Part shown: piece after piece, positions 184-62,700 of the stretch
Numbering within the stretch: position 1 is the stretch's first letter
Layout of the letters: every line of letters starts with the position of its first letter
Source of the DNA: an uncultured Candidatus Saccharibacteria bacterium
GTDB taxonomy: Bacteria > Patescibacteriota > Minisyncoccia > Phycocordibacterales > PALSA-1337
NCBI GenBank assembly: GCA_964358005.1
Contig: CAYHNH010000002.1
Location: 18,596 to 82,595 of the forward strand
Length of the DNA stretch: 64,000 nt
Direction of reading: 5' to 3'
Translations under genes and position numbers: made by a program
Notes under the pieces: model-generated
What the model saw: the letters and a program-made list of their open reading frames with translations, nothing else
Database searches by the model: none
Told to the model about the DNA's origin: nothing

Positions 184-1293
184 ATGTTCTTCTTTGGCGA
201 CTCCAAGCCCAAGCTAAGCCTACTGTTAGAGATACAGAGCTCCCTTGTGAGAGGAACGTTGGCTCTATACGAGGATGGGAGGTTGAAGGAGGTTCTCTAC
301 AGCCTCGACATCGATATCCCATACATCCCACATGCCACTAGCGCATATTATGTTAAAACAGCGCTGCGCAATCTAACAGAAGCCATAGAGACAGCGCTCA
401 AGCACCTGCATCTCATATCGGAAGCGCGGCCGGAGCTCCGTATCCCGAAAAGGCCTGATGATGTCCACTTTGTGATGTCATCGCCATGGATAATATCCCA
501 GCCTAGGAACGTGGTCGTCCCATTCGGTAGGAAAACCGCAATAACGGAGGATAGAATAAAGAAAATCCTAGATGAGGAGCGAATGAAGATGGATTTCGGA
601 CAGAAGCTCAAGGTCGAGACCATAGAAGAAAAGATCTTCGAGGTACGTCTGAACGGATATGCTATAGGAGACTGGCACGGCAAGGAATCCGACAGCCTCG
701 AAGTCTCATATGCTCTATCTGCCGGAAGCTCTGATACTATAGACAAGCTACGAGACATTGCCATCCACTCAACCGGGACGAGGAAGGTATTATTCCACTC
801 AGCCCTCATACTCCACTATATGAGGCTTAGAAATCTGCCTTTGACTCCCCATTCCTACGCGCTCATATATATCCACGGCGAGCAGACTGACGTCATGATA
901 GTGGAGCGACAGCTCTGTTCGTTCTTCGGGTCATTCCCAGTGGGGGTAAATTCTGTGATACGGCGTATCACAGCTGCAGCCCACATCGACCGTCGATCGG
1001 CCGAATCCCTGCTGGCGCTGCATATCGGCGAACATATCGACAAGGAGCATGACAAAACGACTGATGCCCTCATGGCCACCGCATCTTTATATTGGAGAGA
1101 CGGTTTACGCAAGATCCTCGGACCAACCGATCCGGAAAGCAGGATGCCGGACAATGTATTCATGGCCTCCGGAACTCATGACGAATTCTTCACAAGGAGC
1201 CTCCTGTCATTTAAGTCGGACTGCCGGCTGCTACCACTGCCTGCTAGAGCAGAGAATGCATATGCACAGGCTATTAACAATGCTCCAAGGTAG
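184..1293 (+). CDS. hypothetical protein, possible actin-like ATPase fold (FtsA/PilM-like)
   Basis: 369-aa ORF. Two segments resemble the phosphate loops of actin-fold ATPases (LLLEIQSSLVRGTLA; ALIYIHGEQTDVMIVE). A TAGAAT -10 hexamer sits at 172-177, 6 nt before the ATG. Confidence 0.45.
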   Translation: MFFFGDSKPKLSLLLEIQSSLVRGTLALYEDGRLKEVLYSLDIDIPYIPHATSAYYVKTALRNLTEAIETALKHLHLISEARPELRIPKRPDDVHFVMSSPWIISQPRNVVVPFGRKTAITEDRIKKILDEERMKMDFGQKLKVETIEEKIFEVRLNGYAIGDWHGKESDSLEVSYALSAGSSDTIDKLRDIAIHSTGTRKVLFHSALILHYMRLRNLPLTPHSYALIYIHGEQTDVMIVERQLCSFFGSFPVGVNSVIRRITAAAHIDRRSAESLLALHIGEHIDKEHDKTTDALMATASLYWRDGLRKILGPTDPESRMPDNVFMASGTHDEFFTRSLLSFKSDCRLLPLPARAENAYAQAINNAPR

Positions 1294-1319
1294 CCGGTCT
1301 GTGTTATCATACAAGAAAT

Positions 1320-2720
1320 ATGCCTCGTAGAGTTGAAGACATAATCAGGACAGACCGGAGATCCATAAGAAACGTATCTGTCAAAGAATCTGAAAAGATA
1401 CCGGAGAAAAAGCCGGCCGCCAGAGTGCGCCCGGCATCCAAGCCGGATATAGAGGACATGAGTCCCGTGAGAAAAACAAGGACATCATCGGCTATCCGGC
1501 TACCCAAGATAGTTCAGGAACCGCCTATCGGCCGGACAGGCCGGAAGGGCAGAGGCGGGCGCCGGCTGTGGCTACTCATAGTAATCGGCGTGGTCGCAGT
1601 GGTCGGATTTACCGCATTTATCGCATCTTCTTATTTTTCACGCGCGACCTTTTCGATCGTACCTGTGACATTTCCGGTGAGCGTCAATAATGTGACGATT
1701 GTGGCAACAGGAACTTCCACGCCCGGATACATCCGCTACGACGTCGCAAGATACAACGGCACCGCCTCAACGAGCATACCCGCATCTGATGGGCCGATCA
1801 TATCCACGAAATCCACTGGGACGGTGACCTTGTACAACTACTTTGCGACCGAAGGGCAGAGACTCATAGCCGGCACACGCCTTTCTAATGACAACGGCAT
1901 GATATACAGGCTCACAAGCTCCATCTTCATACCTGGATACAAAGCTTCCGGGGGATCGATAATCCCGGGCACCATCCGGACGACAGTGGTGGCAGAGAGC
2001 GCGGGAGCGCAGTATGACCTGGGCAGGAATGAAGGTAGCGGCACGTTGAAGGTCGTCGCCTATAAAGGCGCTCCACGCTATGATTCTATATATGCTAAGG
2101 CCTATAGCGACATAGCAGGGGGCTTCTCCGGAACCAAGAAAACCGTGGATAAATCGCTCCTAGCTTCCACGACAGAGAATCTCCAGAAAGCCCTACAGAA
2201 GACGCTCGAGAGCCAGGCTCTCGCTAACGTCCCTCCAGGCTCTGTGACATACAACACTGCCTATACGATATCCTTCAGCCAACCCAAAATAGGCGGCGAA
2301 GCCGCAAAGAGCGCTACTGTCACCCTGACTGCTACACTCTACAGCGTCTTGTTCAAGAAATCAGAGCTGGTAGCCAAACTTGCCGGATCACAGAATGTAG
2401 GCCGTTTCGGCAAATGGCCATTTTCAAGCGATGGCTTGGAGAACCTAAAATTCTCCATAACCAATCCGGGAACATTTAAGCCTACCGCAGGAAACGCTCT
2501 GATCGCCCGCCTGAATGGAAATATGCAGCTCCGAGGAATAGTCCCGACTGACGAGCTCAGGCAAAAACTGGCAGGCCTATCTTTGGCTCAAACCCGTGCT
2601 GTCTTCGGTTCATATAGTTCCGTCATCGACATAAGCAAGAGCCTCGGGGAGCTATTCCCGTCATGGGCTTCCTCCGTGCCCAAAGACGAAAATAGGATCA
2701 CCGTGGTCGTAAAAGACTAA
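1320..2720 (+). CDS. hypothetical membrane-anchored protein (basic N-terminus, one TM helix, large extracytoplasmic domain)
   Basis: 466-aa ORF with the TM segment LWLLIVIGVVAVVGFTAFIASSYF. It follows the previous gene by 26 nt. Confidence 0.5.
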   Translation: MPRRVEDIIRTDRRSIRNVSVKESEKIPEKKPAARVRPASKPDIEDMSPVRKTRTSSAIRLPKIVQEPPIGRTGRKGRGGRRLWLLIVIGVVAVVGFTAFIASSYFSRATFSIVPVTFPVSVNNVTIVATGTSTPGYIRYDVARYNGTASTSIPASDGPIISTKSTGTVTLYNYFATEGQRLIAGTRLSNDNGMIYRLTSSIFIPGYKASGGSIIPGTIRTTVVAESAGAQYDLGRNEGSGTLKVVAYKGAPRYDSIYAKAYSDIAGGFSGTKKTVDKSLLASTTENLQKALQKTLESQALANVPPGSVTYNTAYTISFSQPKIGGEAAKSATVTLTATLYSVLFKKSELVAKLAGSQNVGRFGKWPFSSDGLENLKFSITNPGTFKPTAGNALIARLNGNMQLRGIVPTDELRQKLAGLSLAQTRAVFGSYSSVIDISKSLGELFPSWASSVPKDENRITVVVKD

Positions 2721-2725
2721 GTTTC

Positions 2726-2754
2726 TTGACTATATTATGGGTCTCTGCTAATAT
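2726..2754 (+). promoter_or_regulatory. sigma70-type promoter (TTGACT, 17-bp spacer, TAATAT) for the infA-rpmJ-rpsM-rpsK-rpsD-rpoA-rplQ cluster
   Basis: The -35 TTGACT lies at 2726-2731 and the -10 TAATAT at 2749-2754, with a 17-nt spacer. The infA ATG at 2775 is 20 nt downstream. Confidence 0.5.
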
Positions 2755-2774
2755 TCGGAAACGCGTTTATACGC

Positions 2775-3002
2775 ATGGATACCGCTCCTCAACCAAAGAA
2801 TACCGCGACCGGAACCGTCGTAGAGGCGTTACCGGACACGCTGTTTCGTGTTTCGATCACAAATGACGGGACTGAAACCATCGTACTGGCCTACTTGGCT
2901 GGAAAGATGAGGATGAACAGGATCCGTGTATTGGTAGGCGACCGGGTAGAGATAATGCAGGATCCATACGGAGGAAGAGCGCGCATCATAAAACGGTTAT
3001 AA
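2775..3002 (+). CDS. infA: translation initiation factor IF-1
   Basis: 75-aa S1-like protein ([49 protein letters not shown]) immediately upstream of rpmJ/rpsM. Confidence 0.9.
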
Positions 3003-3003
3003 A

Positions 3004-3120
3004 ATGAAAGTCAGAGCTGCGGTAAAAAAGATCTGCCCCAAGTGCCAAGTCGTCCGCCGCGGCGGATATGTGTATGTGACGTGCAAATCGAACCCGCGCC
3101 ATAAGCAGCGCCAAGGCTAA
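3004..3120 (+). CDS. rpmJ: 50S ribosomal protein L36
   Basis: Hand translation gives [38 protein letters not shown] (38 aa) with the C-x2-C...C zinc ribbon. It sits in the canonical infA-rpmJ-rpsM position. It is missing from the ORF track because it is shorter than 60 aa. Confidence 0.85.
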
Positions 3121-3151
3121 TCAAAAAAAGGCTTTTTAGTAAACATCCATC

Positions 3152-3532
3152 ATGCGTATTTTAGGTATTACACTCCCCGAGAGTAAAAGGATTGAGATAG
3201 CACTGACCGCCATTTATGGTATAGGAAGGTCACGGGCTCTGAGCATTCTCGAGCAATCGAAAGTCGATCCAGCCACCAAGGCCAAGGATATATCCGTAGA
3301 CCAGGAGAATGCGCTCCGCAAGCTTATCGAGGGCTTCAGGATAGAGGGTGACCTCAAGCGCGAGGTCGGCGCCAACGTCAAGCGCCTGAAGGACATCAAG
3401 GCCTATCGCGGTTTGCGCCATGCAAGACATCTCCCGACTCGCGGCCAGCGGACGAAGACCAACTGTCGCACTGTCCGAGGAAACGTGAGAAAGACCATGG
3501 GATCGGGCCGCCGTAAGGAAGAGAAGACATAA
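3152..3532 (+). CDS. rpsM: 30S ribosomal protein S13
   Basis: 126 aa (MRILGITLPESKRIEIALTAIYGIGRSRA...) in conserved gene order. Confidence 0.92.
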   Translation: MRILGITLPESKRIEIALTAIYGIGRSRALSILEQSKVDPATKAKDISVDQENALRKLIEGFRIEGDLKREVGANVKRLKDIKAYRGLRHARHLPTRGQRTKTNCRTVRGNVRKTMGSGRRKEEKT

Positions 3533-3537
3533 AATAT

Positions 3538-3963
3538 ATGGGTAAAAAAAGGATAGTCACAACTGAAGGAGGGGCAGAGGCAAAGCCAAAGGCTGCCGGA
3601 GCTGGAAGCAAAAAGCATGTAGATGCTGGCATTTTGCACGTGCAGTCTACCTACAACAACACCAAGGTCATGCTCACCGACAAGCAGGGCAACGCCCTTA
3701 TGTGGGGATCATCTGGTGGTGCAGGCTTTCGAGGCGCAAAGAAGGGCACTCCATTCGCAGCCGCCAAGGTCGGCGAAACTCTGGCGCTCAAGGCAGTCAA
3801 TCTCGGACTTAAGGAGATCGACGTCGTCGTCAAGGGAGTCGGTTCCGGCCGTGAGTCAGCCATACGTGGTTTTATCAGCAAGGGCGTCGTCATCACTTCC
3901 ATCAAGGATGCGACGCCTGTTCCTTTTAATGGCCCGCAACCTAAGAAGCCACGACGCGTCTAA
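3538..3963 (+). CDS. rpsK: 30S ribosomal protein S11
   Basis: 141 aa (HVQSTYNNTKVMLTDKQGNAL...GSGRESAIRG). Confidence 0.92.
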   Translation: MGKKRIVTTEGGAEAKPKAAGAGSKKHVDAGILHVQSTYNNTKVMLTDKQGNALMWGSSGGAGFRGAKKGTPFAAAKVGETLALKAVNLGLKEIDVVVKGVGSGRESAIRGFISKGVVITSIKDATPVPFNGPQPKKPRRV

Positions 3964-3972
3964 TATACATAT

Positions 3973-4578
3973 ATGCAAATCGGCCCACGCTACAAAAAAG
4001 CTCGCTATCTAGGTGCTCCTATATTCAGGAAGACCCAGACGCAGAAATACGCTATGCGATCTCAGCGCAAGGTCAAGACCACCAAGCGCCGTGGCGGCAA
4101 GAGCGAATACGGCCGTCAGATGCTAGAGAAACAGAAGGCCCGTTTCAGCTATGGAGTCTCGGGAGGACAGTTCTCAAATTACGTCAAGAAGGCCCTGCAG
4201 GCTTCAGGCGATAACGCCAAGAACCTGATCAGCATTCTCGAGGGCCGCCTCGATAATGTGATAGTTCGCGCAGGCTTTGCGCCGACGCGTTCGGCTGCTC
4301 GCCAGATGGTCTCTCACGGCCATATCACGGTCGGTGGAAAGAAGGTGAACATCCCGTCATATCAGGTAAGGACTGGCGAGGTGCTGTCAGTCCGCTCCGG
4401 CAGTGTCGGCAAGGCGATCTTCTCGAAGGTCAGCGAGGATGTGAAGGCCACCAAAGTGCCGACATGGATGAGCGTGGATGCCGACAAGAAAGAGATACGC
4501 ATATCGGGTGAGCCGACAGCGGATGCGACAGATCTTTTGTTCGATGTCCGTTCGGTCTTGGAGTTCTACACCCGCTAG
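3973..4578 (+). CDS. rpsD: 30S ribosomal protein S4
   Basis: 201 aa with the S4 N-terminal domain and an S4 RNA-binding domain (LDNVIVRAGFAPTRSAARQMVSHGHITVGGKKVNIPSYQV). Confidence 0.92.
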   Translation: MQIGPRYKKARYLGAPIFRKTQTQKYAMRSQRKVKTTKRRGGKSEYGRQMLEKQKARFSYGVSGGQFSNYVKKALQASGDNAKNLISILEGRLDNVIVRAGFAPTRSAARQMVSHGHITVGGKKVNIPSYQVRTGEVLSVRSGSVGKAIFSKVSEDVKATKVPTWMSVDADKKEIRISGEPTADATDLLFDVRSVLEFYTR

Positions 4579-4603
4579 AGCACTAGACAGTATGTTTTTT
4601 TAA

Positions 4604-4611
4604 TGTATAAT
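4604..4611 (+). promoter_or_regulatory. possible internal extended -10 promoter (TGTATAAT) ahead of rpoA
   Basis: TGTATAAT lies in the 59-nt spacer between rpsD and rpoA. Confidence 0.3.
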
Positions 4612-4637
4612 TATTCCTTCATTTAACTAATAATCAC

Positions 4638-5618
4638 ATGACTCACGACATCGTTGTCCCATCGAAGCCGAAGATAGTCCGAGAGGATGCGGTAAGCGGC
4701 GTATATGAGATAGATGGCCTCTATCCAGGTTATGGCCATACACTAGGCAATTCTCTGCGCCGCATCATCCTCTCTTCGCTCCCAGGGGCAGCGGTTACTC
4801 GCGTCAAGATATCAGGAGTCGAACATGAATTCTCGACCATAAATGGCGTCAAGGAAGATGTCATCACCATCATACTCAGCCTAAAGAAGCTGCGCATACG
4901 CCTTACTGGCGACGAGCCGGTCACCCTGACACTCAAGGGCAAGGGGGCTATGGAACTCACTGCCAAGGACATAGATGCTCCTGGGCAAGCTGAGATACTC
5001 AATCCTGACCTGTACATAGCTACGCTTTCGGACAAGTCAGCAGATCTGAACATTGAGATGACCGTCGAAAAGGGCTTGGGATACGTATCGAAGGAGAACC
5101 TCCAGAAGGAGCGCGTAGAGATTGGCGTCATCACCCTGGATGCGGCGTTTACACCTATCCGCAAGGCCAACTACGAAGTCGAGAATATGCGCGTCGGTGA
5201 TAGGACAGATTTCAACCGCCTCCGTCTATCGATTGAGACAGATGGGACAATAACCCCACACGAGGCTCTCGAGAATTCTATAGTGCTCATGATCAACCAG
5301 CTCAAGGCCGTCGTAGGTTTCGTAGAGAAGGAAGAGCCGAAACCGGAGGTCAAAGCCGATGAATCAGCCGATAGGAACGCTGGAGCAGAGGGCCGACTCC
5401 CGAAGGAAGTAGATACGGAGCTCCTGAAGACCCGCGTCGATGCTCTCGACCTGTCTTCGAGAACTGTGAAGGCTTTGACGAATGCCAATATCCGCACGCT
5501 GGGGGGTATGGCCCGCAAGAAGGAGTCGGACATCATGGACATAGACGGCTTGGGCGCCAAGGGCATGCAGGAGATAAAGAAGCTCCTCGCCCAGCACGGC
5601 ATTATCCTGAAACAATAG
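4638..5618 (+). CDS. rpoA: DNA-directed RNA polymerase subunit alpha
   Basis: 326 aa with alpha N-terminal and C-terminal domains (GHTLGNSLRRIILSSLPGAAV...; C-terminal HhH region LDLSSRTVKALTNANIRTLG). Confidence 0.93.
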   Translation: MTHDIVVPSKPKIVREDAVSGVYEIDGLYPGYGHTLGNSLRRIILSSLPGAAVTRVKISGVEHEFSTINGVKEDVITIILSLKKLRIRLTGDEPVTLTLKGKGAMELTAKDIDAPGQAEILNPDLYIATLSDKSADLNIEMTVEKGLGYVSKENLQKERVEIGVITLDAAFTPIRKANYEVENMRVGDRTDFNRLRLSIETDGTITPHEALENSIVLMINQLKAVVGFVEKEEPKPEVKADESADRNAGAEGRLPKEVDTELLKTRVDALDLSSRTVKALTNANIRTLGGMARKKESDIMDIDGLGAKGMQEIKKLLAQHGIILKQ

Positions 5619-6748: not shown

Positions 6749-7306
6749 ATGAAAGAACACAAAAAGGACATCGAAAATAACGATCTCGATGACTCGGTTG
6801 TAGCCGAGGAGAATGCCGCAGAAGCCATAAAGAAGCTGCGCGAAAAGCTCAAGAAATGCGAAGCCGAGAAGATGGAATATCTGACCGGCTGGCAACGCGC
6901 CAAGGCTGACATGATAAATGCTCGCAAACGCGATGAGGCTGAGCGAGCAGAGTTCATCAAATTCTCAAACGAGCGCCTGATCGAGAGCCTCATACCTGTC
7001 CTCGAGAGCTTTGATCTAGCCATGGGCAATAAGGTGGCCTGGGAAAAGGCCGACAAGAACTGGCGTGTTGGGGTCGAGTATATCTATTCACAGCTAAAGA
7101 AGGCTTTGGCTGATTCGGGCCTGGAGGAGATTGACCCTATCGGAAAAGCATTTGACCACAGCCGTGACGAAGCGGCTGAATACGTGCCTGCTGAAAAAGA
7201 GGCAGACCATCATAAGATCATTGCTGTGATTCAAAAGGGGTATGTCCTGAATGGGAAAGCTCTAAGGCCACCGAAGGTGAGAGTGGGGGAGTTTAAGACT
7301 CTTTAA
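6749..7306 (+). CDS. grpE: nucleotide exchange factor GrpE
   Basis: 185 aa with a coiled-coil N-terminus and the GrpE C-terminal domain (ESLIPVLESFDLAM...PIGKAFDHSRDEAAEYVPAEKEADHHKIIAVIQKGYVLNGKALRPPKVRV). Confidence 0.9.
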   Translation: MKEHKKDIENNDLDDSVVAEENAAEAIKKLREKLKKCEAEKMEYLTGWQRAKADMINARKRDEAERAEFIKFSNERLIESLIPVLESFDLAMGNKVAWEKADKNWRVGVEYIYSQLKKALADSGLEEIDPIGKAFDHSRDEAAEYVPAEKEADHHKIIAVIQKGYVLNGKALRPPKVRVGEFKTL

Positions 7307-7574
7307 TCAGGATCTCATCTTTTATACCCAGGTGTTTGCTTATGGTATTAAGTTGGCGTGCCATTAGAACGATATTTTGATCTAAGACGTCTATTTTGTA
7401 GTCGATTCGGTTGAATCTAAGATCCATAGCGTCAAAACGACGATCTACAGCATCAAAGCGCTCATCGATCTTGTCGAATCTATCAAAGACGGACTGAAAG
7501 CTCTGGCCTATGTCGTCCATGCTCGTCTTAAATTCGGTCTTTGTAACGTAGTCTTGCATTTGTATTTGGTACAT
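7293..7574 (-). CDS. small coiled-coil protein (paralog of 44434..44694)
   Basis: 93 aa with heptad-like repeats (RFDKIDERFDAVDRRFDAMDLRFNRIDYKIDVL). It is followed by an AT-rich upstream region that shares a conserved block with the region upstream of the 44434..44694 gene. Confidence 0.55.
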   Translation of the reverse strand: MYQIQMQDYVTKTEFKTSMDDIGQSFQSVFDRFDKIDERFDAVDRRFDAMDLRFNRIDYKIDVLDQNIVLMARQLNTISKHLGIKDEILIKES

Positions 7575-7670
7575 TTTATTCCTATAAAATTAGTAATGCA
7601 ATAGTCTAGCAATATAGTAATGAAGAAACGTTCAAAAAAAGTTCAAATTTTAATGAATTTTTTGAAACCC

Positions 7671-7697
7671 TTGACTACCCAATACGTCTGATATAAT
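7671..7697 (+). promoter_or_regulatory. sigma70-like promoter (TTGACT, 15-nt spacer, TATAAT) ahead of the 7707 ORF and the dnaK locus
   Basis: TTGACT lies at 7671-7676 and TATAAT at 7692-7697. The ATG at 7707 is 9 nt downstream of the -10. Confidence 0.45.
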
Positions 7698-7706
7698 AGG
7701 AAAACA

Positions 7707-8030
7707 ATGCTTACCCCTTATTCACGCTCAAATTTCGTCGAAAAAGTCCTGACCGACCACTCCGGCCGCCAGTTCAGGGCGCTTTTCCTCGTTACGCTCG
7801 TAAATGGGGAAGTGAAGGGTCATCTCCTTTCCCTCAAGCCGATGCCGATGAAGACTCTTGCCATCGAGGGTGCTGTTTCTGATGGCTCTATCTGCCTGCC
7901 TTGCTGGACGACAGACTGCGAGATCGAGACTCCGTATGTCGCCTCATATGCACCAGTCATTTCTCCATACTTTAGCGAGCTCGACATTTTCCTATCTACA
8001 CAACCAACCAGGGCGCCTGCTTTTGCATAA
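7707..8030 (+). CDS. hypothetical protein
   Basis: 107-aa ORF directly downstream of a promoter-like element. No recognisable domain. Confidence 0.4.
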   Translation: MLTPYSRSNFVEKVLTDHSGRQFRALFLVTLVNGEVKGHLLSLKPMPMKTLAIEGAVSDGSICLPCWTTDCEIETPYVASYAPVISPYFSELDIFLSTQPTRAPAFA

Positions 8031-32205: not shown

Positions 32206-33468
32206 TTATATGCACTGGATGTCCCACGAATCGCATTCCGCGCCGCATGACATACTTGTTCCAGTAACCGTACACCCATCAAGAACATCTCCTATATACT
32301 CACCGTAGTCATTGTATGCTGGCGAATAAGTGCAATCCATCTTGCTGCACGAGCAACCGTCCCCAGAGCAATCCATGTCACCTTCGTCGCAAGAGCATGT
32401 TATCGTGTATGACACACAGACTTCTTGTTCTATACACCCACCACCCCCTCCTCCACCACCGGTCGGTGGTTCCGAAGGTGGTTCTGAAGGCGCCTCAGAT
32501 GGCGGCTCTGAAGGAGCTTCCGAGGGTGGTTCTGAAGGAGGAGTTGAAGGCGGCTCGGTTGGTGGTTCCGAGGGTGGATCAGAAGGAGGTGTCGAGGGTG
32601 GTTCCGACGGCGGTTCTGAAGGAGGAGTCGAAGGCGGCTCTGAAGGAGCTTCTGAGGGCGGTTCTGAAGGAGGAGTTGAAGGTGGCTCGGATGGTGGTAC
32701 CGAAGGAGGTTCAGATGGCGGCACACTTGGCTCTGGGGTAGGTGTAGATCCTCCACAAGCGGCCGTTCCATAGTCACTGCAACCAAGGTCACAATGATCG
32801 CCGCAGACAGTCGAACCGTCGCTACCAGTGGCTCCACACGAGGCATTTGCGCAAGGATTGGTGCATACAGGCAGCCCAGCCAATGGGCAACCGGCATCGC
32901 AAGAATCGCCGCAAGTCGTCACACCGTCGCTGCCGGTCTGGCCGCAACTCTTTCCGTCACAGACACCTACGCACGCCGCCGTTCCAGCATCTGGACACCC
33001 AGTATCGCAGTGGCTACCACAGGTGGTCGAGCCGTCAGTGCCAGTCTCGCCGCAATCATACCCGCTAGGACAGGCGCAAGCGGCGGTTCCGGCATCGGGA
33101 CAGCCTGTGTCGCAGCTGCTGCCGCAGGTCGTCACACCGTCCGACCCGGTATCTCCACAGGAGACACCGGTGCAGACATCCACTCCACAATTATTCAAGG
33201 AAACGTTCGGAGCACCGTTGTTCACAATAGAAAGCCACTCATTTTGGGTCTTTGTGCCTATGAAAAGGTTCTTGGAATTGGCATTGTCGACATCTCTACA
33301 GATGCTGTACTCGTCTATGGTCTCCACAGCCCCCGCTCCGACATCATACCAGTTGTAATTAGCCGCCAAGGCGGGTGTAATCTGAAATGAGAAAAATGAG
33401 AAAACAGCCACCGCAGCGAACGCGATCCTAAGAGCCTTGAATACTGATGTATATACGTTTCTCTTCAT
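32206..33468 (-). CDS. secreted cysteine-rich repeat protein with (PPSE)n low-complexity linker
   Basis: Signal peptide, then four roughly 40-aa Cys-rich modules (SCG.TGSDG.TTCG..CD.GCP.AG), then about 25 tandem PPSEPPS-type repeats, a Gly8 run, and a Cys-rich C-terminus. Confidence 0.8.
   Translation of the reverse strand: MKRNVYTSVFKALRIAFAAVAVFSFFSFQITPALAANYNWYDVGAGAVETIDEYSICRDVDNANSKNLFIGTKTQNEWLSIVNNGAPNVSLNNCGVDVCTGVSCGDTGSDGVTTCGSSCDTGCPDAGTAACACPSGYDCGETGTDGSTTCGSHCDTGCPDAGTAACVGVCDGKSCGQTGSDGVTTCGDSCDAGCPLAGLPVCTNPCANASCGATGSDGSTVCGDHCDLGCSDYGTAACGGSTPTPEPSVPPSEPPSVPPSEPPSTPPSEPPSEAPSEPPSTPPSEPPSEPPSTPPSDPPSEPPTEPPSTPPSEPPSEAPSEPPSEAPSEPPSEPPTGGGGGGGGCIEQEVCVSYTITCSCDEGDMDCSGDGCSCSKMDCTYSPAYNDYGEYIGDVLDGCTVTGTSMSCGAECDSWDIQCI
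32461..32735. repeat. 12-nt periodic tandem repeat (coding; PPSE-type peptide repeat)
   Basis: The unit ggtggttctgaa(ggn) is repeated about 23 times. This repeat produces the false ORFs in several alternative frames. Confidence 0.85.
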
Positions 33469-43077: not shown

Positions 43078-44417
43078 GCCTCTACAATACGCTCTCCAAG
43101 AAGAAAGAGACCGTAAAGCCTCTCAAGGCAGGCGCGATTTCGATGTACAACTGCGGCCCGACCGTCTATGACACTCCTCATATCGGCAATTACCGCACAT
43201 TCACCATGAGCGATATCTTGCGGCGTGTCTTCGAGTACAGCGGGTACAAGGTGACAGAGGTCATGAATGTGACCGATGTGGATGACAAGACCATAAAGAG
43301 GAGCCGCGCCGAGAATGTCTCGCTCGGGGATCTGACCAGAAAATACGAGAAGCTCTTCCTGTATGGTCTGGATTCGCTCAACATCGAGCTCCCCCACCAG
43401 CTCACCAGAGCTACGGAGCATGTCCAGGCTATGATAGACCTAGTTTCTGTCCTGCTCGAAAAGGGCGTCGCCTATAAAGCCGATGATGGCGTATATGTAG
43501 ACATCTCGAAGGTCAAGGGCTATGGCGCACTGGCGCATTTGGATGTAAAAGCGGCTGCGAGATCACGTGTAGCCAAAGACGAATACGACAAGGAGAACGC
43601 CCGCGACTTCGCCGTCTGGAAATTCAGGAGCGCAGATGACGGCGACGTATCATGGCCCGCTCCGTTCGGAGAAGGCCGACCGGGCTGGCACATAGAATGT
43701 TCAGCCATGTCCATGGAAGCTCTCGGACCGACGATAGACGTGCACACTGGGGGCAATGACCTGGTCTTCCCTCATCATACGAATGAGATAGCTCAGTCAG
43801 AGTCCGCTACCGGTAAGCAGTTCGTTCGCTATTGGGTGCATGGCGGCTTCATGAATGTGAGCGACGAGAAGATGGCCAAGTCGAAAGGTAATTTCATCAA
43901 GCTCGATACGCTGGCCGAGGAATCCATCTCGCCCGTAGCCTTTCGTTATTGGCTCATGACCGCGCATTATCGCTCCCCGGTGAATTTTACATTCGACAGC
44001 GTCAAGGCGGCCCAGAATGCGCTCATCAAATTCATGGCGGCTGTTGCTCTATTCCCTGATGGAGGCAACATCAATAAGGATTACCAGGGACGATTCCTGG
44101 CCTTCATAAACGACGATATGGACATGCCGAAGGCCATCGCCCTGTCCTGGGACCTCATCAATGATCCCGCAGTCGCGGCGGCCGACAAGCGCGCCACTTT
44201 GCTGGATTTCGATCGCGTCTTCGGCCTGAAGCTAGCCGAGGCCCCTAGATTCAAGGAGGAGCCCATCCCCACGGAGATACAGGCCCTAGCAGACGCCCGC
44301 GAAGAAGCTCGCAAGACCAAAGACTGGAAGAAGGCCGATGCCCTGCGTTCCGAGATCGAGGCGCGCGGATTTGACGTGGATGATACGCCGGAAGGACCGA
44401 GGATAATGGCCAAATAA
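43068..44417 (+). CDS. cysS: cysteine--tRNA ligase
   Basis: Class I aaRS with the HIGH-type motif (CGPTVYDTPHIGNYRT), zinc-binding residues, and KMSKS (KMAKSKGN). Confidence 0.9.
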   Translation: MDISLYNTLSKKKETVKPLKAGAISMYNCGPTVYDTPHIGNYRTFTMSDILRRVFEYSGYKVTEVMNVTDVDDKTIKRSRAENVSLGDLTRKYEKLFLYGLDSLNIELPHQLTRATEHVQAMIDLVSVLLEKGVAYKADDGVYVDISKVKGYGALAHLDVKAAARSRVAKDEYDKENARDFAVWKFRSADDGDVSWPAPFGEGRPGWHIECSAMSMEALGPTIDVHTGGNDLVFPHHTNEIAQSESATGKQFVRYWVHGGFMNVSDEKMAKSKGNFIKLDTLAEESISPVAFRYWLMTAHYRSPVNFTFDSVKAAQNALIKFMAAVALFPDGGNINKDYQGRFLAFINDDMDMPKAIALSWDLINDPAVAAADKRATLLDFDRVFGLKLAEAPRFKEEPIPTEIQALADAREEARKTKDWKKADALRSEIEARGFDVDDTPEGPRIMAK

Positions 44418-44433
44418 TGGCGCCAGATGCTTC

Positions 44434-44694
44434 CTAGGCAAACTCCGTGCGATCGCGGAAGCGCATGGCGTCCCTGACTTCTGCTTTTACGTCCCCTATC
44501 TCATCAGACATATCCTGCCTACAGGCCTCTACCTTGTCCTCGGCGTCAGCTAGGCGGCTGCACAGCCTGGCCTCCACCATATCTATCCGCTCTTCAAGCC
44601 TTTCGAAGCTCCTGGATATGGATACAGCCACATCATCGCTGTTCTTATACATGAGTTTCTCTAATAATTCGACGTCCTTTTGGTCTAAAGCCAT
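44434..44694 (-). CDS. small coiled-coil protein (paralog of 7293..7574)
   Basis: 86 aa (SISRSFERLEERIDMVEARL...). It shares heptad pattern and sequence blocks with the 7293..7574 gene, and their upstream DNA is also conserved. Confidence 0.55.
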   Translation of the reverse strand: MALDQKDVELLEKLMYKNSDDVAVSISRSFERLEERIDMVEARLCSRLADAEDKVEACRQDMSDEIGDVKAEVRDAMRFRDRTEFA

Positions 44695-44837
44695 ATAATT
44701 GGGCTAATTTGCTTATAATCCTCTGACTGCAGTAACTCTAGCAATCCACAGTTCAAATTTGCTTCAAAAAAAGTTAAAATTATGATGAAGAAGTTCTAAA
44801 AATCTGTCGAAGATTTTATAAACAGCTTGTCCACCTA

Positions 44838-56178: not shown

Positions 56179-57792
56179 CTACGCTTTCCTAAATGGCTCC
56201 AATTCCACCACGAATGTCGAGCCCTTGCCTTCTCCGGCTGATTCCGCCCTTATGGTGCCATGATGTGCCTCCACCATCTGCTTGGCCACGAACAGTCCGA
56301 GTCCGGTGCCCTTGATGTTGACCTTGTTGGCATTGTTGGCTCGCGAGAATTTCTGGAAGAGATGCGGCAATATCTCCGGATCTATGCCTATGCCAGTGTC
56401 CTTGATCTCAAATATGATGACCTGCCTCTTGTGATCGAATGACAGAGTAACTGCAACCGAGCCGGAAGGCGTGTATTTCACCGAATTATCTACGAGGTTG
56501 GCTATGACCTGCTTCAGCTTGTCGCGGTCAGCGGTTATGCGGTAATCGGTACCGTTGTTCTCGGCAGCGAAACTGAAGTTCAAGCCCTTACCCTCAATGT
56601 TCGGCTTGAGCTCGGCTATGACGTCCTCGACCATGAGTTTGAGGTCAATGGTCTCGAATGTATATTTCATCGTTCCGAGCTCTATCCTGCTGATATTAAG
56701 GTAGTCGTTAACTATACTGACCAGTGTGTTCGTAGAATCAAATATGCGCTCTATGCCCTCCTTGGCCGCCGGCGGCAGTTCTCCCATGTCGCCTTCGAGC
56801 AATAGAGAGCCGTAACCCTTCATGGCCGTAAGCGGCGCGCGCAGCTGATGCGTAGCGAACGACACGAACTCTGACTTCTGCCTATCCAGCTCCGTGAGGC
56901 GCGTATTGGCCTTCTCCAGATCATCTGCCAGCTTTTGGATGCGTTCGCGTTGTTCAATCTCGTTAAACACATTCTTTACCAACCAAATTCCAAATATAAC
57001 AGTCAAAACAAGGATAACTCCACCAATAATTGCATCCTCAAAACTCTGTGCAAGTACAACCCTAAATAGTAAGGTTATCCAGATCGTTGCTGTCAGCAAT
57101 TGAGCTGTTATAACCCTAATATCAAACAGCTTATATTTTAAAATCGCATAGGCAATAATGAGTGGATAAAATGCAAATAATATCACTGGAAACGGTGGAA
57201 TCAGTACATTGAAGGTCAGAAGGAAAACACTACTACCACCTATAAATCCAGCTACCGATGAAAAAAGGATGTACTTAAGTCTGTGACCTTCCTCTTTTGA
57301 AACCTTCTTTATCTTTAATGATAGTAATATCAACGCAAAAATTACCGTCGCAAAAAAGTAAACAGTAAATGCAACATACAGCGGCCCTGCATTTGGTACA
57401 TAGGGCAAAGTTCCCTTAGAGAATACATCGGTAACAAATAATACAGAAGGCGTAACGGATGCAAAATATATAGCTATTATTCCAAAAACAAATAAAAAGG
57501 GCTTATATTTTTTTAATTCTTCAATAACAGTAATTATAAAAAACAAATAAAAAAATGGAATAAATGATGCACCGATATGTAAAATAATATCGCTTAAAAC
57601 TGCGGCTTCTTTACTTGAGGCTATTAGCATACTGTAATAACCAAAACTCCATATGCCTGTTGATATAGAGAGCAAAAGCCAAATTATGCTTTTAAGTTGC
57701 TTCGAGTTACTTAAAAAAACCAACAATCCAGAACCGAGAGCAACTAAACCACCTATAAAAAGAGACAAGCTATAGTATGTAAAGAAAAACAT
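56179..57792 (-). CDS. sensor histidine kinase with N-terminal 7TM receptor domain (orphan)
   Basis: 7 TM helices, a coiled-coil linker, a HisKA H-box (SFATHQLRAPL), and HATPase_c N/G1/G2 boxes. Confidence 0.85.
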   Translation of the reverse strand: MFFFTYYSLSLFIGGLVALGSGLLVFLSNSKQLKSIIWLLLSISTGIWSFGYYSMLIASSKEAAVLSDIILHIGASFIPFFYLFFIITVIEELKKYKPFLFVFGIIAIYFASVTPSVLFVTDVFSKGTLPYVPNAGPLYVAFTVYFFATVIFALILLSLKIKKVSKEEGHRLKYILFSSVAGFIGGSSVFLLTFNVLIPPFPVILFAFYPLIIAYAILKYKLFDIRVITAQLLTATIWITLLFRVVLAQSFEDAIIGGVILVLTVIFGIWLVKNVFNEIEQRERIQKLADDLEKANTRLTELDRQKSEFVSFATHQLRAPLTAMKGYGSLLLEGDMGELPPAAKEGIERIFDSTNTLVSIVNDYLNISRIELGTMKYTFETIDLKLMVEDVIAELKPNIEGKGLNFSFAAENNGTDYRITADRDKLKQVIANLVDNSVKYTPSGSVAVTLSFDHKRQVIIFEIKDTGIGIDPEILPHLFQKFSRANNANKVNIKGTGLGLFVAKQMVEAHHGTIRAESAGEGKGSTFVVELEPFRKA

Positions 57793-61794: not shown

Positions 61795-61926
61795 AATACG
61801 CGATAATACGCCCAAGAATGGCCGCGAATAAAATCTTCATTAAAATTTGAACTTTTCTTCATCGTTCCTTGAACCTTGTTGTTGTAGGATGGTGTTCGAT
61901 GATTTCATCACTGACGACAATCGGTA

Positions 61927-62700
61927 TCACGTTACTGGCGTTATCGGCGCTTTCCATTGGTATTTTGGCTGTTTTAGCGTACGGGATCTACTGGTCTCAC
62001 AAGGGGAAGTAGGAGCCGGCAAAGCGCGGATCCTGTCCATGACATAGTTGGCCTGAGCTTTGAAATCCTCAGCCGTCGGGACGACCGAGCTTTTGGCTAT
62101 GCCCCATACAGGCTCACCGAACGAGACTGACAGCTTGCAACGACCAAGGAATAGATCCGCGGGCGTAAGACCAAAAGTGCCACCAATGCGGACAGGTACT
62201 ATCGGCCTGCCGGTCGCGTATGAGAGATATGCCACGCCGCCCTTACCCTGTTGAATCGTGCCATCTGGAGTCGCTCGGCCTTCCGGGAAGATGCACAAGC
62301 TGCCCCCCTCGCGAAGTATGAGCTCGTGAGGAGCGAGCGACTTGGCATAGTCATGCAGGCCGACTTTGACCGCGTAAGCGCCCCAGATATTGAAGAAGGC
62401 TCCGCCATAGAAGCGCTGTCTCCAGCCGGCGCGCCTGTAGAACGCCTGTTCTCGCGAGGTATAGAAGATAGGCGAGAAGCGCGAGAAAAACGGCAGGCAT
62501 CCAGGCACCATGAATACATCCATCTCGCTCGAATGATTGCAGGCGAATATGGCATTGTGAGGGACTTTCTTGAGATTCTCTCTGCCCTTCATCTCCACGT
62601 GGCCGAATAGGACAAGGAGCAGGCGTGTCGGGACCCAGATGATCTGCTGGAGGAGCCACGGACTCACGAAATACCAGAGCTTGACCGATTTCATTTCCAA
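61927..62700 (-). CDS. plsC: 1-acyl-sn-glycerol-3-phosphate acyltransferase
   Basis: HX4D motif (CNHSSEMD) and the FPEGRATP block. Confidence 0.8.
   Translation of the reverse strand: MEMKSVKLWYFVSPWLLQQIIWVPTRLLLVLFGHVEMKGRENLKKVPHNAIFACNHSSEMDVFMVPGCLPFFSRFSPIFYTSREQAFYRRAGWRQRFYGGAFFNIWGAYAVKVGLHDYAKSLAPHELILREGGSLCIFPEGRATPDGTIQQGKGGVAYLSYATGRPIVPVRIGGTFGLTPADLFLGRCKLSVSFGEPVWGIAKSSVVPTAEDFKAQANYVMDRIRALPAPTSPCETSRSRTLKQPKYQWKAPITPVT

What the first reader, a model, noticed from the sequence alone, without database searches (positions are those of the whole stretch)
7293..7706. Paralogous small coiled-coil genes with a conserved ~55-nt upstream block (locus A, next to grpE/dnaK)
The 93-aa minus-strand gene 7293..7574 and the 86-aa gene 44434..44694 share the protein pattern S(F/V)F(E/D)R(L/F)(E/D)..ID.(V/R)(E/F)A.L and the same arrangement. 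Each converges on a housekeeping gene (grpE here, cysS at the other locus). Each is followed by an AT-rich divergent promoter region.

The upstream DNA is also conserved:
- TCTAGCAAT: 7604-7612 here, 44736-44744 at the other locus.
- Exactly 19 nt later, CAAAAAAAGTT: 7632-7642 and 44764-44774.
- Then AAATT-TGATGAA-TTyTrAAA.

Read on the coding strand, this gives TTGAA(C/G), a 17-nt spacer, then TTGCTAGA. That spacing suggests a shared, non-consensus promoter or operator, so the two genes may form a small co-regulated family.
Basis: seen in the sequence. Interest (0 to 1): 0.6.

Follow-up and report, generated by a model that had tools for sequence, protein, structure and literature searches.

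The report
Repeat-array promoter of putative competence regulon
The conserved DNA block in front of two small genes is a promoter made of head-to-tail 11-base repeats, and in related ultrasmall (CPR/Paceibacterota) bacteria the same promoter sits in front of DNA-uptake and recombination genes, so it probably marks a previously undescribed competence regulon.

Summary
The two proteins are not demonstrably paralogues (BLASTP E=0.018; hhalign probability 8%). Each is predicted as one long helix.

The "block" is an array of strictly 11-bp-phased direct repeats (unit WWYTTBADC; T5, T6 and A8 about 99% conserved). It ends 8-9 nt before a -10 hexamer TAnnnT, usually the extended form TGnTAnnnT. There is no -35.

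The window has exactly three such arrays:
- A, 7618-7661(-), before the 93-aa gene
- B, 44750-44815(-), before the 86-aa gene
- C, 61832-61875(+), before a 37-aa membrane peptide

None appears in shuffled sequence.

The array is conserved before about 40 orthologues of gene B in Paceibacterota, and before the one orthologue of gene A. An array-based metagenome scan, blind to gene identity, found it before comM, a comGA/pilB-comGB-pilin operon, comEC, comF, rpsF-ssb-rpsR-recA, pilin and MazF-like genes. Most of these have a start codon exactly 6 nt after the -10, implying leaderless mRNAs.

Best reading: an activator-type promoter with pho-box-like geometry that marks a putative natural-competence regulon. 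The two small coiled-coil genes are unrelated members of it. The binding factor is unknown, and all evidence is computational.

The parts
7618..7661 (-). Array A. Four head-to-tail 11-nt units: AAAATTCATTA, AAATTTGAACT, TTTTTTGAACG, TTTCTTCATTA.
   Evidence: TRF independently reports period 11 at 7626-7647.
7603..7611 (-). Extended -10 of gene A: TGC TAGACT (hexamer 7603-7608). It lies 9 nt after the last unit.
   Evidence: position and consensus shared by 72 arrays
7575..7597 (-). Predicted 5'UTR of gene A. It starts at ATTACTAA (predicted TSS about 7596/7597) and contains AGGA 7 nt before the ATG.
   Evidence: Sequence. TSS position inferred from the ATTA offset and the leaderless starts.
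7293..7574 (-). Gene A: 93 aa, acidic (pI 4.85), heptad RFDxxDx repeats, predicted single long helix 2-82. Its 3' end overlaps the grpE stop codon region by 14 nt.
44750..44815 (-). Array B. Six 11-nt units: four strong (44750-44793: CTTCTTCATCA, TAATTTTAACT, TTTTTTGAAGC, AAATTTGAACT) and two weaker distal ones.
44735..44743 (-). Extended -10 of gene B: TGC TAGAGT (hexamer 44735-44740). It lies 9 nt after the last unit.
44695..44728 (-). Predicted 5'UTR of gene B (about 34 nt, TSS about A44728), with no Shine-Dalgarno sequence near the ATG.
   Evidence: Sequence. B-family UTRs are 28-40 nt in most loci.
44434..44694 (-). Gene B: 86 aa, acidic (pI 4.54), predicted single long helix 5-85 (pLDDT 94). 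It belongs to a conserved small-protein family (invariant DDxAVSIxRSFERLEERID) and is convergent with cysS.
61832..61875 (+). Array C. Four units: AATCTTCATTA, AAATTTGAACT, TTTCTTCATCG, TTCCTTGAACC.
61885..61890 (+). -10 hexamer TAGGAT of gene C, 9 nt after the last unit.
61899..62012 (+). Gene C: 37-aa hydrophobic peptide MISSLTTIGITLLALSALSIGILAVLAYGIYWSHKGK. Its ATG is 8 nt after the -10, so the mRNA is (near-)leaderless.

Best explanation
The conserved block is the upstream half of a specialised promoter.

Shown:
- It consists of 4-6 head-to-tail copies here (4-9 in the 72 arrays analysed) of an 11-bp unit, WWYTTBADC plus 2 nt, in strict 11-bp register.
- The last unit ends 8-9 nt before a sigma-70-type -10 (TAnnnT, TGn-extended in two thirds of cases).
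- There is no -35 hexamer.
- Counted from the promoter, TTTYTT-type and RRATTT-type units alternate, giving a 22-bp super-period.
- The element marks a gene set. In this window it comprises three small genes: coiled-coil A, coiled-coil B and membrane peptide C. In related Paceibacterota it also comprises comM, a comGA/pilB-comGB-pseudopilin operon, comEC, comF, a type IV pilin, rpsF-ssb-rpsR-recA, MazF/PemK-like genes and an unknown family of about 120 aa.

Inferred:
- A sequence-specific DNA-binding protein oligomerises head-to-tail on one face of the helix, as dimers on 22-bp sites. It substitutes for the -35 contact and recruits RNA polymerase, as PhoB does at pho boxes.
- An OmpR/PhoB-type winged-helix response regulator is the leading candidate but is unproven.
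- The regulon is a natural-competence (DNA uptake and recombination) programme.
- A and B are unrelated small helical proteins expressed with that machinery. Their molecular roles are unknown.
For: Array architecture:
1. Register. Spacings between unit hits in 80 upstream regions are 11 (61 times), 22 (23), 33 (3) and 44 (2), with almost nothing else.
2. Unit conservation. In 219 in-phase units, T5 is 0.99, T6 0.98, A8 0.98, and position 7 is never A.
3. Fixed geometry in 72 arrays. The gap to TAnnnT is 8 nt (32 cases) or 9 nt (40 cases). TGn is present in 67%. None has a 5/6 or better match to TTGACA at a 16-18-nt spacer.
4. The -10 and TSS are corroborated independently. In 17 of 21 non-B targets the ATG or GTG lies exactly 6 nt after the hexamer (leaderless). 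B-family loci have ATTA at that same offset in 25 cases.

Specificity and conservation:
5. Only 3 arrays occur in 64 kb, with 3-unit scores of 30-33 against a null maximum of 21.
6. Arrays precede about 40 B orthologues across Paceibacterota at 50-90% protein identity. They also precede the only A orthologue, L001. The more distant relative P0004 shows TGATATAAT-N7-ATTA at the edge of its contig.

Regulon content:
7. A metagenome scan with an array-only pattern recovered true arrays before these genes:
   - ComM/YifB: TIGR00368, E=7e-162, in four different species.
   - T2SSE ATPase: PF00437, E=5e-99, followed by PilC-like and pseudopilin genes.
   - ComEC: DUF4131 plus Competence domains.
   - ComF: TIGR00201, E=1.6e-22.
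   - An N_methyl pilin, PemK, and S6 followed by ssb, S18 and recA.

Activator and regulator leads:
8. A 22-bp alternation is anchored to the promoter.
9. Response-regulator genes abut the B array in 7 loci. In L013 an OmpR-type regulator has its stop codon touching the first unit.
10. The PHO box is defined as two 11-nt direct repeat units bound head-to-tail, with a sigma-70 contact (PMC4415409).
Against: - There is no expression, TSS or binding data. Everything rests on sequence comparison.
- In the window itself the arrays precede only three small genes of unknown function. The competence genes carrying arrays are on other contigs. Some come from the same aquifer samples with similar composition, but none is proven to be the same genome.
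- Loci L206-L324 were selected by the array pattern, so the target list is not an unbiased census, and related species are not independent.
- Two thirds of the promoters have an extended -10. That could work without an activator, so the array could equally be a repressor site.
- No regulator gene is in the window. Adjacency to response-regulator genes is seen in only two lineages and could be coincidental.
- Several targets are not classical competence genes: MazF-like, an M16 peptidase, a 962-aa secreted protein and the unknown families.
Confidence: 0.6

Rival explanations
1. Repressor operator. The array is coated by a protein that oligomerises along the repeats and occludes the -35 to -21 region of an otherwise self-sufficient extended -10 promoter. 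The genes are silenced until the repressor is released.
For: - 67% of array promoters carry TGn extended -10 elements, which in other bacteria can work without a -35 (general knowledge).
- The array reaches to about -21 and so overlaps the RNA polymerase footprint.
Against: - comM promoters lack TGn (GCGCTA..., CGGCTA...) and have no -35, so they should need help.
- The strict 8-9-nt register between the last unit and the -10, and a 22-bp phase anchored on the promoter, are typical of activator-polymerase contact rather than simple occlusion.
Confidence: 0.15
2. Protein-independent or RNA-polymerase-intrinsic upstream element. Phased T-tracts act as curved DNA or UP-element-like contacts for the alpha C-terminal domains. 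On this reading the arrays mark strong promoters, not a regulon.
For: - The units are T-rich on the non-template strand and helically phased.
- One target is the ribosomal-protein operon rpsF.
Against: - Only 3 of about 70 genes in the window have an array. The ribosomal-protein/rpoA cluster, dnaK and dnaJ do not.
- Neighbouring promoters have ordinary -35/-10 hexamers, for example TTGACT...TATAAT at 7671-7697.
- The invariant TTBA core with variable T-tract length indicates base-specific recognition.
- The targets are functionally coherent DNA uptake and recombination genes.
Confidence: 0.12
3. The two genes are paralogues sharing a non-consensus promoter (-35 TTGAAS, 17 nt, -10 TTGCTA), perhaps read by an alternative sigma factor and linked to the adjacent chaperone or housekeeping genes.
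For: The strings exist at identical spacing at both loci.
Against: - There is no significant protein homology.
- In 72 aligned promoters the conserved downstream element is TAnnnT, 3 nt further on. Leaderless start codons lie 6 nt after it.
- TTGAAS is one unit of a 4-9-unit array and is variable (TTTATC, TTCATC and others).
- There is no CIRCE element.
Confidence: 0.05
4. Replication-related repeats (oriC unwinding element or iterons). Locus B lies next to dnaB and has DnaA-box-like 9-mers nearby.
For: GGTGGACAA-gc-TGTGGAGAA-like pairs lie just distal to the array in many dnaB-B intergenic regions.
Against: - Arrays occur at more than 30 other loci without DnaA boxes, always at a fixed distance from a -10 and a start codon.
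- There is no GC-skew inflection at 44.8 kb.
- The window contains three arrays in 64 kb.
Confidence: 0.02

Closest known systems
PhoB/PhoP-dependent promoters (PHO boxes) and other OmpR/PhoB-family tandem direct-repeat operators (KdpE, ArcA, Streptomyces PhoP direct-repeat units)
   Same: - 11-bp direct repeat units, with about 7 informative and 4 loose positions.
- Units pair into 22-bp boxes, and the number of units varies per promoter.
- Head-to-tail arrangement that replaces the -35 and ends about 10 bp upstream of the -10.
(PMC4415409)
   Different: - The unit sequence is WWYTTBADC, not CTGTCAT or GTTCACC.
- Up to 9 units occur in unbroken register.
- The regulon is DNA uptake and recombination plus small unknown proteins, not phosphate scavenging.
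- Transcripts are mostly leaderless.
- The binding protein is unidentified.
Competence regulons defined by a shared cis-element: CRP-S/Sxy sites in gamma-proteobacteria, ComK boxes in Bacillus, the cin-box/ComX in streptococci
   Same: - Gene content: pilus/pseudopilus ATPase and pilins, comEC (rec2), comF, comM, ssb and recA share one promoter signature.
- The regulon was found by phylogenetic footprinting (PMC1635313).
- From my own knowledge, the H. influenzae regulon also contains a toxin-antitoxin pair. That parallels the MazF-like targets here.
   Different: - The cis-element is unrelated. It is not a 22-bp CRP dyad, not AAAA-N5-TTTT (0 matches at the three window loci), and not a -10-type sigma box.
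- Evidence for ComK, Sxy/TfoX or ComX homologues was not sought here.
- The lineage is CPR/Patescibacteria. I found no description of competence regulation there in four full-text searches.
UP elements and phased A/T tracts upstream of strong sigma-A promoters
   Same: A/T-rich, helically phased DNA upstream of the core promoter.
   Different: - The element extends into the -35 position instead of lying upstream of it.
- It has an invariant TTBA core.
- It is restricted to a small, functionally coherent gene set.
Generic heptad-repeat coiled-coil small proteins (DUF7310, DUF16, XhlA-like)
   Same: Gene A has RFDxxDx heptads. It gives sub-threshold hits to DUF16 in Pfam and to an XhlA-like 'hemolysin' family in PHROGs. 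Its relatives P0001-P0006 give sub-threshold DUF7310 hits.
   Different: - All hits are below the curated cut-offs.
- Gene B hits none of them and has no Pfam, NCBIfam or PDB relative.

Membership tests
Paralogous protein family (A and B) | Statistically significant sequence or profile similarity | tested here: not met
   BLASTP gives E=0.018 with 6/19 identities. hhalign of A3 against A2 gives probability 8.3% over 18 columns. A was not among the 120 listed of the 190 hits to B, and no B-family member is among the 6 hits to A.
Paralogous protein family (A and B) | Same fold | tested here: inconclusive
   Both are predicted as one long alpha-helix (B residues 5-85, pLDDT 94; A residues 2-82, pLDDT 81). 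A single helix carries no information about homology.
Sigma-70 extended -10 promoter | TGn immediately upstream of a TAnnnT hexamer about 7 nt before the transcription start | tested here: met
   A has TGCTAGACT and B has TGCTAGAGT. TGn is present in 67% of 72 arrays. Start codons lie 6 nt after the hexamer in 17 leaderless targets. The TSS itself was not measured.
PHO-box-like (OmpR/PhoB-type) activated promoter | Tandem direct repeats with an 11-bp period | tested here: met
   Spacings are 11, 22, 33 or 44 bp almost exclusively. A 22-bp super-period is present.
PHO-box-like (OmpR/PhoB-type) activated promoter | Repeats replace the -35 and end about 10 bp upstream of the -10 | tested here: met
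   The gap from the last 11-mer to the hexamer is 8-9 nt, so the conserved core ends about 10 nt upstream. None of 72 promoters matches TTGACA at 5/6 or better.
PHO-box-like (OmpR/PhoB-type) activated promoter | Bound and activated by a phosphorylated winged-helix response regulator | not testable with these tools
   Only leads exist. An OmpR-type regulator gene abuts the array in L013, and REC-REC genes abut it in 6 loci. No regulator gene is in the window. Two orphan HisKA_7TM kinases lie at 56179-57792 and 59546-61255.
Natural-competence regulon | One cis-element shared by DNA-uptake genes (pseudopilus ATPase, pilin, comEC, comF) and DNA-processing genes (comM, ssb, recA) | tested here: met
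   This holds across related Paceibacterota contigs. It was not shown for the window's own genome, where only A, B and C carry arrays.
Natural-competence regulon | Co-induction with, and requirement for, transformation | not testable with these tools
   No expression or genetic data are available. Natural competence has been shown experimentally only in Saccharibacteria (PMC11665869).
ComK-box promoters | Paired AAAA-N5-TTTT boxes | tested here: not met
   There are 0 matches on either strand at the three window loci.
HrcA/CIRCE heat-shock control (suggested by the grpE/dnaK neighbourhood) | The inverted repeat TTAGCACTC-N9-GAGTGCTAA | tested here: not met
   There are 0 matches in the window with up to 3 mismatches.
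oriC / DNA-unwinding element | A unique locus with DnaA boxes, AT-rich repeats and a GC-skew switch | tested here: not met
   The window has three arrays, and dozens elsewhere lack DnaA boxes. There is no skew inflection at 44.8 kb.

The most novel reading that the evidence does not exclude
The 11-bp repeat array is the binding site of a so-far unidentified master regulator of natural competence in Paceibacterota (CPR/Patescibacteria). It would provide the first cis-regulatory code for DNA uptake in this radiation. On this reading the B family (conserved beside cysS in about 60 genomes), protein A, the small membrane peptide, the 120-aa family and the MazF-like proteins are new, lineage-specific components or controllers of the transformation machinery.
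Probability: 0.45. Interest if true: 0.85.

Novelty: new variant of a known kind. Interest (0 to 1): 0.7.

Why it matters
Patescibacteria/CPR lack nucleotide biosynthesis and are enriched in competence machinery. Natural competence has been demonstrated, and used for genetics, only in Saccharibacteria. [quoted passage not shown] That text contains neither "transcription factor" nor "two-component".

A conserved, easily scanned promoter signature would have four uses:
1. It would let the regulon be read from any Paceibacterota genome.
2. It nominates uncharacterised small proteins (B, A, C, the A4 family) as competence-associated.
3. It gives a concrete bait for finding the regulator, by DNA-affinity capture or DAP-seq.
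4. It supplies candidate regulated promoters for genetic tools.

It also shows pho-box-type promoter geometry combined with leaderless transcripts in a deep-branching lineage.

Tried and rejected
- Rfam gathering scan and tRNA scan of the whole window: nothing found.
- The consensus sigma-70 scan did not see these promoters, because they have no -35.
- Pfam, NCBIfam, PHROGs and PDB sequence searches of A, B and C gave only sub-threshold coiled-coil noise. Fold search was not run, because both models are single helices.
A degenerate 5-unit pattern on viral contigs returned only AT-rich giant-virus junk, L086-L205, which I ignored. The specific pattern has no viral hits.
- About two thirds of the 119 metagenome hits were 3-unit chance matches in AT-rich DNA. 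I filtered them by requiring at least 4 in-phase units, a score of at least 30, and TAnnnT at 8-9 nt.
- Rejected readings: oriC or iterons, CIRCE and ComK boxes.
- The A4 family, a possible regulator, has no Pfam or PDB relative.
- I tried to extend beyond the window ends to find competence genes of the same genome. Only short Hainich contigs came back.
This remains a lead, not a result.
- Four full-text literature searches found no description of this element. The library is incomplete.
Full report
**1. What is at the coordinates**

The window is a CPR/Paceibacterota-type contig. Identical copies of gene A occur on Hainich aquifer (H41) metagenome contigs. Gene B's relatives are annotated as Paceibacterota, Taylorbacteria or Parcubacteria MAGs.

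Gene A (7293-7574, minus strand, 93 aa) lies tail-to-tail with grpE (6749-7306) and overlaps it by 14 nt. Gene B (44434-44694, minus strand, 86 aa) ends 17 nt from the cysS stop. Both have divergent neighbours: ORF 7707-8030 with a canonical TTGACT...TATAAT promoter for A, and dnaB for B.

Each occurs exactly twice in 64 kb, at identical spacing and 1 nt to the right of the stated coordinates: TCTAGCAAT at 7605 and 44737, CAAAAAAAGTT at 7633 and 44765.

**2. The proteins are not demonstrable paralogues**

- BLASTP gives 6/19 identities, E=0.018 for the single comparison.
- hhalign of an A-family alignment (A, P0001, P0004) against 30 B-family members gives probability 8.3% over 18 columns.
- A has only one clear orthologue (P0001, 52% identity). 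Otherwise it hits generic RFDxxDx heptad-repeat proteins.
- B belongs to a compact, well-conserved family. It has at least 190 clusters at 90% identity, and 225 representatives at 50% identity with E<=1e-3. The stretch DDxAVSIxRSFERLEERID is invariant.
- Neither protein has a Pfam, NCBIfam or PDB relative above threshold.
- AlphaFold2 predicts each as one long helix: B residues 5-85 with pLDDT 94, A residues 2-82 with pLDDT 81. Both are acidic, with pI 4.5 and 4.9.

**3. What the upstream block is**

I printed the 170 nt upstream of 80 B-family loci from GTDB species genomes. The block is not a single motif. It is an array of direct repeats.

- Register. Spacings between unit matches are 11 nt (61 cases), 22 (23), 33 (3) and 44 (2), with almost nothing else.
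- Unit. From 219 in-phase units the consensus is W W Y T T B A D C n within an 11-mer. T5, T6 and A8 are 98-99% conserved, and position 7 is never A.
- Size. In the 72 arrays that pass all filters there are 4-9 units.
- Distance to the -10. The last 11-mer is followed by 8 nt (32 cases) or 9 nt (40 cases) and then TAnnnT. TGn precedes the hexamer in 67% of cases.
- No -35. None of the 72 promoters matches TTGACA at 5/6 or better at a 16-18-nt spacer.
- Super-period. Counted from the promoter, units -2 and -4 are mostly TTTYTT-type (61/72 and 43/72). Units -1, -3 and -5 are mostly RRATTT-type. The alternation beats every one of 2000 permutations (p<0.0005). The loci are phylogenetically related, so this is indicative rather than a true probability.

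In the window the arrays are:
- A, 7618-7661, four units, then TGCTAGACT.
- B, 44750-44815, four strong and two weak units, then TGCTAGAGT.

TRF independently reports period 11 at 7626-7647.

**4. More than chance, and specific**

With the PWM, a three-unit phased score reaches 30-33 bits at exactly three places in the window. The maximum over 30 shuffles is 21, and the next real hit scores 18. A strict regex gives 3 arrays against 0 in 50 shuffles.

The third array (61832-61875, plus strand) precedes a 37-aa hydrophobic peptide whose ATG lies 8 nt after the -10 TAGGAT.

None of the ribosomal-protein, rpoA, dnaK or dnaJ genes in the window has an array.

**5. Conservation**

- Arrays precede about 40 B orthologues at 50-90% protein identity, while the surrounding intergenic sequence differs.
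- The single A orthologue, on a farmland-soil contig (L001), has four units followed by TATAAT and then ATTGCATTAC.
- The more distant relative P0004 shows TGATATAAT-N7-ATTA at the very edge of its contig.
- B is convergent with cysS in about 60 CPR loci and divergent from dnaB in about 24.
- Verrucomicrobial copies of B have no array. They sit in mobile-element-like clusters containing Replic_Relax, a CHC2 plus Toprim primase, and RadC.

**6. The regulon**

A pattern built only from the array (TTCATNNWWATTTKAAYNTTTYTTSA, which matches A, B, C, L001 and L006) has no hits in viral contigs.

About two thirds of those hits are 3-unit chance matches in AT-rich DNA. The rest are true arrays: at least 4 in-phase units with the -10 at the right distance. 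Their downstream genes are:

| Target | Loci | Evidence |
|---|---|---|
| ComM/YifB | L208, L212, L281, L318 | TIGR00368, E=7e-162 |
| PilB/ComGA-type ATPase, followed by PilC/ComGB-like and pseudopilin genes | L225, L228, L254, L303, plus L048 from the B-selected set | PF00437, E=5e-99 |
| ComEC | L271 | DUF4131 plus Competence |
| ComF family | L210 | TIGR00201, E=1.6e-22 |
| Type IV pilin | L039 | N_methyl |
| rpsF-ssb-rpsR-recA operon | L227, L249 | — |
| PemK/MazF-like | L206, L289, L234, L013 | — |
| Unknown basic family, 113-144 aa (alignment A4) | L206, L234, L246, L252, L248 | — |
| M16 peptidase | L320 | by inspection of the sequence; not scanned against Pfam |
| 962-aa secreted protein | L236 | by inspection of the sequence; not scanned against Pfam |
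| B itself | L222, L304, L312 | — |

In 17 of 21 non-B targets the ATG or GTG lies exactly 6 nt after the -10 hexamer. B loci have ATTA at that same offset. This agreement independently supports the -10 and TSS assignment and implies leaderless mRNAs for most targets. A and B instead have leaders of about 23-40 nt.

The gene content matches competence regulons defined elsewhere by a shared cis-element, such as the CRP-S regulon of H. influenzae (pil, rec2, comF, comM, ssb, radC, dprA; PMC1635313).

**7. Mechanism (inferred)**

The geometry is that of PhoB-type promoters. It has 11-bp direct repeat units with about 7 informative positions, paired into 22-bp boxes and variable in number. They are arranged head-to-tail, abut the -10 region and replace the -35. 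At such promoters the regulator contacts sigma-70 (PMC4415409).

I therefore favour a sequence-specific activator that oligomerises along the array.

Leads to its identity:
- In L013 an OmpR/PhoB-type regulator (Response_reg plus Trans_reg_C) ends at the base before the first unit.
- In six related loci a REC-REC protein ends just before the array.
- The window contains two orphan HisKA_7TM kinases close to array C.

None of this is proof. A repressor is possible, because the extended -10 could be self-sufficient. An RNA-polymerase-intrinsic UP-like element remains possible but fits the specificity and the invariant TTBA core less well.

oriC or iterons, ComK boxes, CIRCE and chance are rejected.

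**8. Limits**

- There are no expression or binding data.
- The competence genes with arrays are on other contigs. Some come from the same aquifer samples with similar GC content and tetranucleotide usage; L228, for example, has GC 0.527 and a correlation of 0.88.
- The metagenome loci were selected by the array itself.
- The roles of A, B and C are unknown.
- No intrinsic terminator follows A or B, so their transcripts may read antisense into grpE and cysS. This is speculation.

**9. Novelty**

Four full-text searches found no description of such an element or of competence regulation in Patescibacteria. A 2024 perspective notes that the competence machinery is enriched in the group and that inducible systems and reporters still need developing (PMC11665869).

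The kind of element is known: a tandem direct-repeat activator site that defines a regulon. What appears new is the motif, the lineage, its pairing with leaderless transcripts and the small-protein members.

**Verdict:** a real and specific feature. Interest 0.7.

Noticed in passing
window 44816-44835 (minus strand); also L011, L075, L222, L082, L034, L050 and others: A tandem pair of DnaA-box-like 9-mers lies just distal to the array, only in dnaB-B intergenic regions. Elsewhere it reads GGTGGACAA-gc-TGTGGAGAA; in the window it reads GGTGGACAAGCTGTTTATAA. L234, L309 and L317 have perfect TGTGGATAA near arrays. It may reflect DnaA control of dnaB.
   Followed up: partly
L013 959-1648; L041, L052, L053, L054, L080, L084 (about 2030-2890): Response-regulator genes lie immediately upstream of the B array. 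L013 has an OmpR/PhoB-type regulator whose stop codon abuts unit 1. Six related genomes have a 265-aa REC-REC protein there. These are candidate links to two-component signalling.
   Followed up: partly
L206, L234, L246, L252, L248 (alignment A4): A basic protein family of 113-144 aa with no Pfam or PDB relative is a recurrent leaderless target of the array. It could be a regulator or a nucleic-acid-binding factor.
   Followed up: partly
L206, L289, L234, L013: PemK/MazF-like proteins with an N-terminal extension are recurrent array targets. No adjacent antitoxin gene was noticed, but none was specifically searched for.
   Followed up: no
L044 (Verrucomicrobia) 600-5300; also L029-L033, L035, L037, L042-L044, L049, L059, L061: Family B also occurs in Verrucomicrobia, without the array. 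There it follows a conserved protein of about 100 aa ending ...FWIITEADRSxTTVLLPDDY, inside a mobile-element-like cluster (XRE, Replic_Relax, excisionase-like, CHC2 plus Toprim primase, RadC).
   Followed up: partly
window 7293-7306 and 44417-44434: Gene A overlaps the grpE 3' end by 14 nt, and gene B ends 17 nt from cysS. No intrinsic terminator is predicted after either, so array-driven transcripts may run antisense into grpE and cysS. The B-cysS convergence is conserved in about 60 genomes.
   Followed up: partly
window 7671-7699 and 7707-8030: A canonical TTGACT...TATAAT promoter and a 107-aa ORF with no Pfam hit lie back-to-back with array A. The ORF is called as a gene on all four Hainich/Logan contigs (L002-L005).
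   Followed up: no
window 56179-57792 (-) and 59546-61255 (+): Two orphan histidine kinases lie in a low-GC stretch (35-49% over 54-62 kb), just upstream of array C. The first was scanned and has a HisKA_7TM N-terminal domain; the second looks similar but was not scanned. No cognate response regulator is nearby.
   Followed up: partly
window 1-64000: There are no tRNA genes and no Rfam gathering-level hits in 64 kb.
   Followed up: no
window 32465-32715: A long imperfect tandem repeat (periods 24, 48, 84 and 132) lies inside the 420-aa minus-strand ORF 32206-33468. It encodes a Gly/Ser/Glu-rich repeat region.
   Followed up: no
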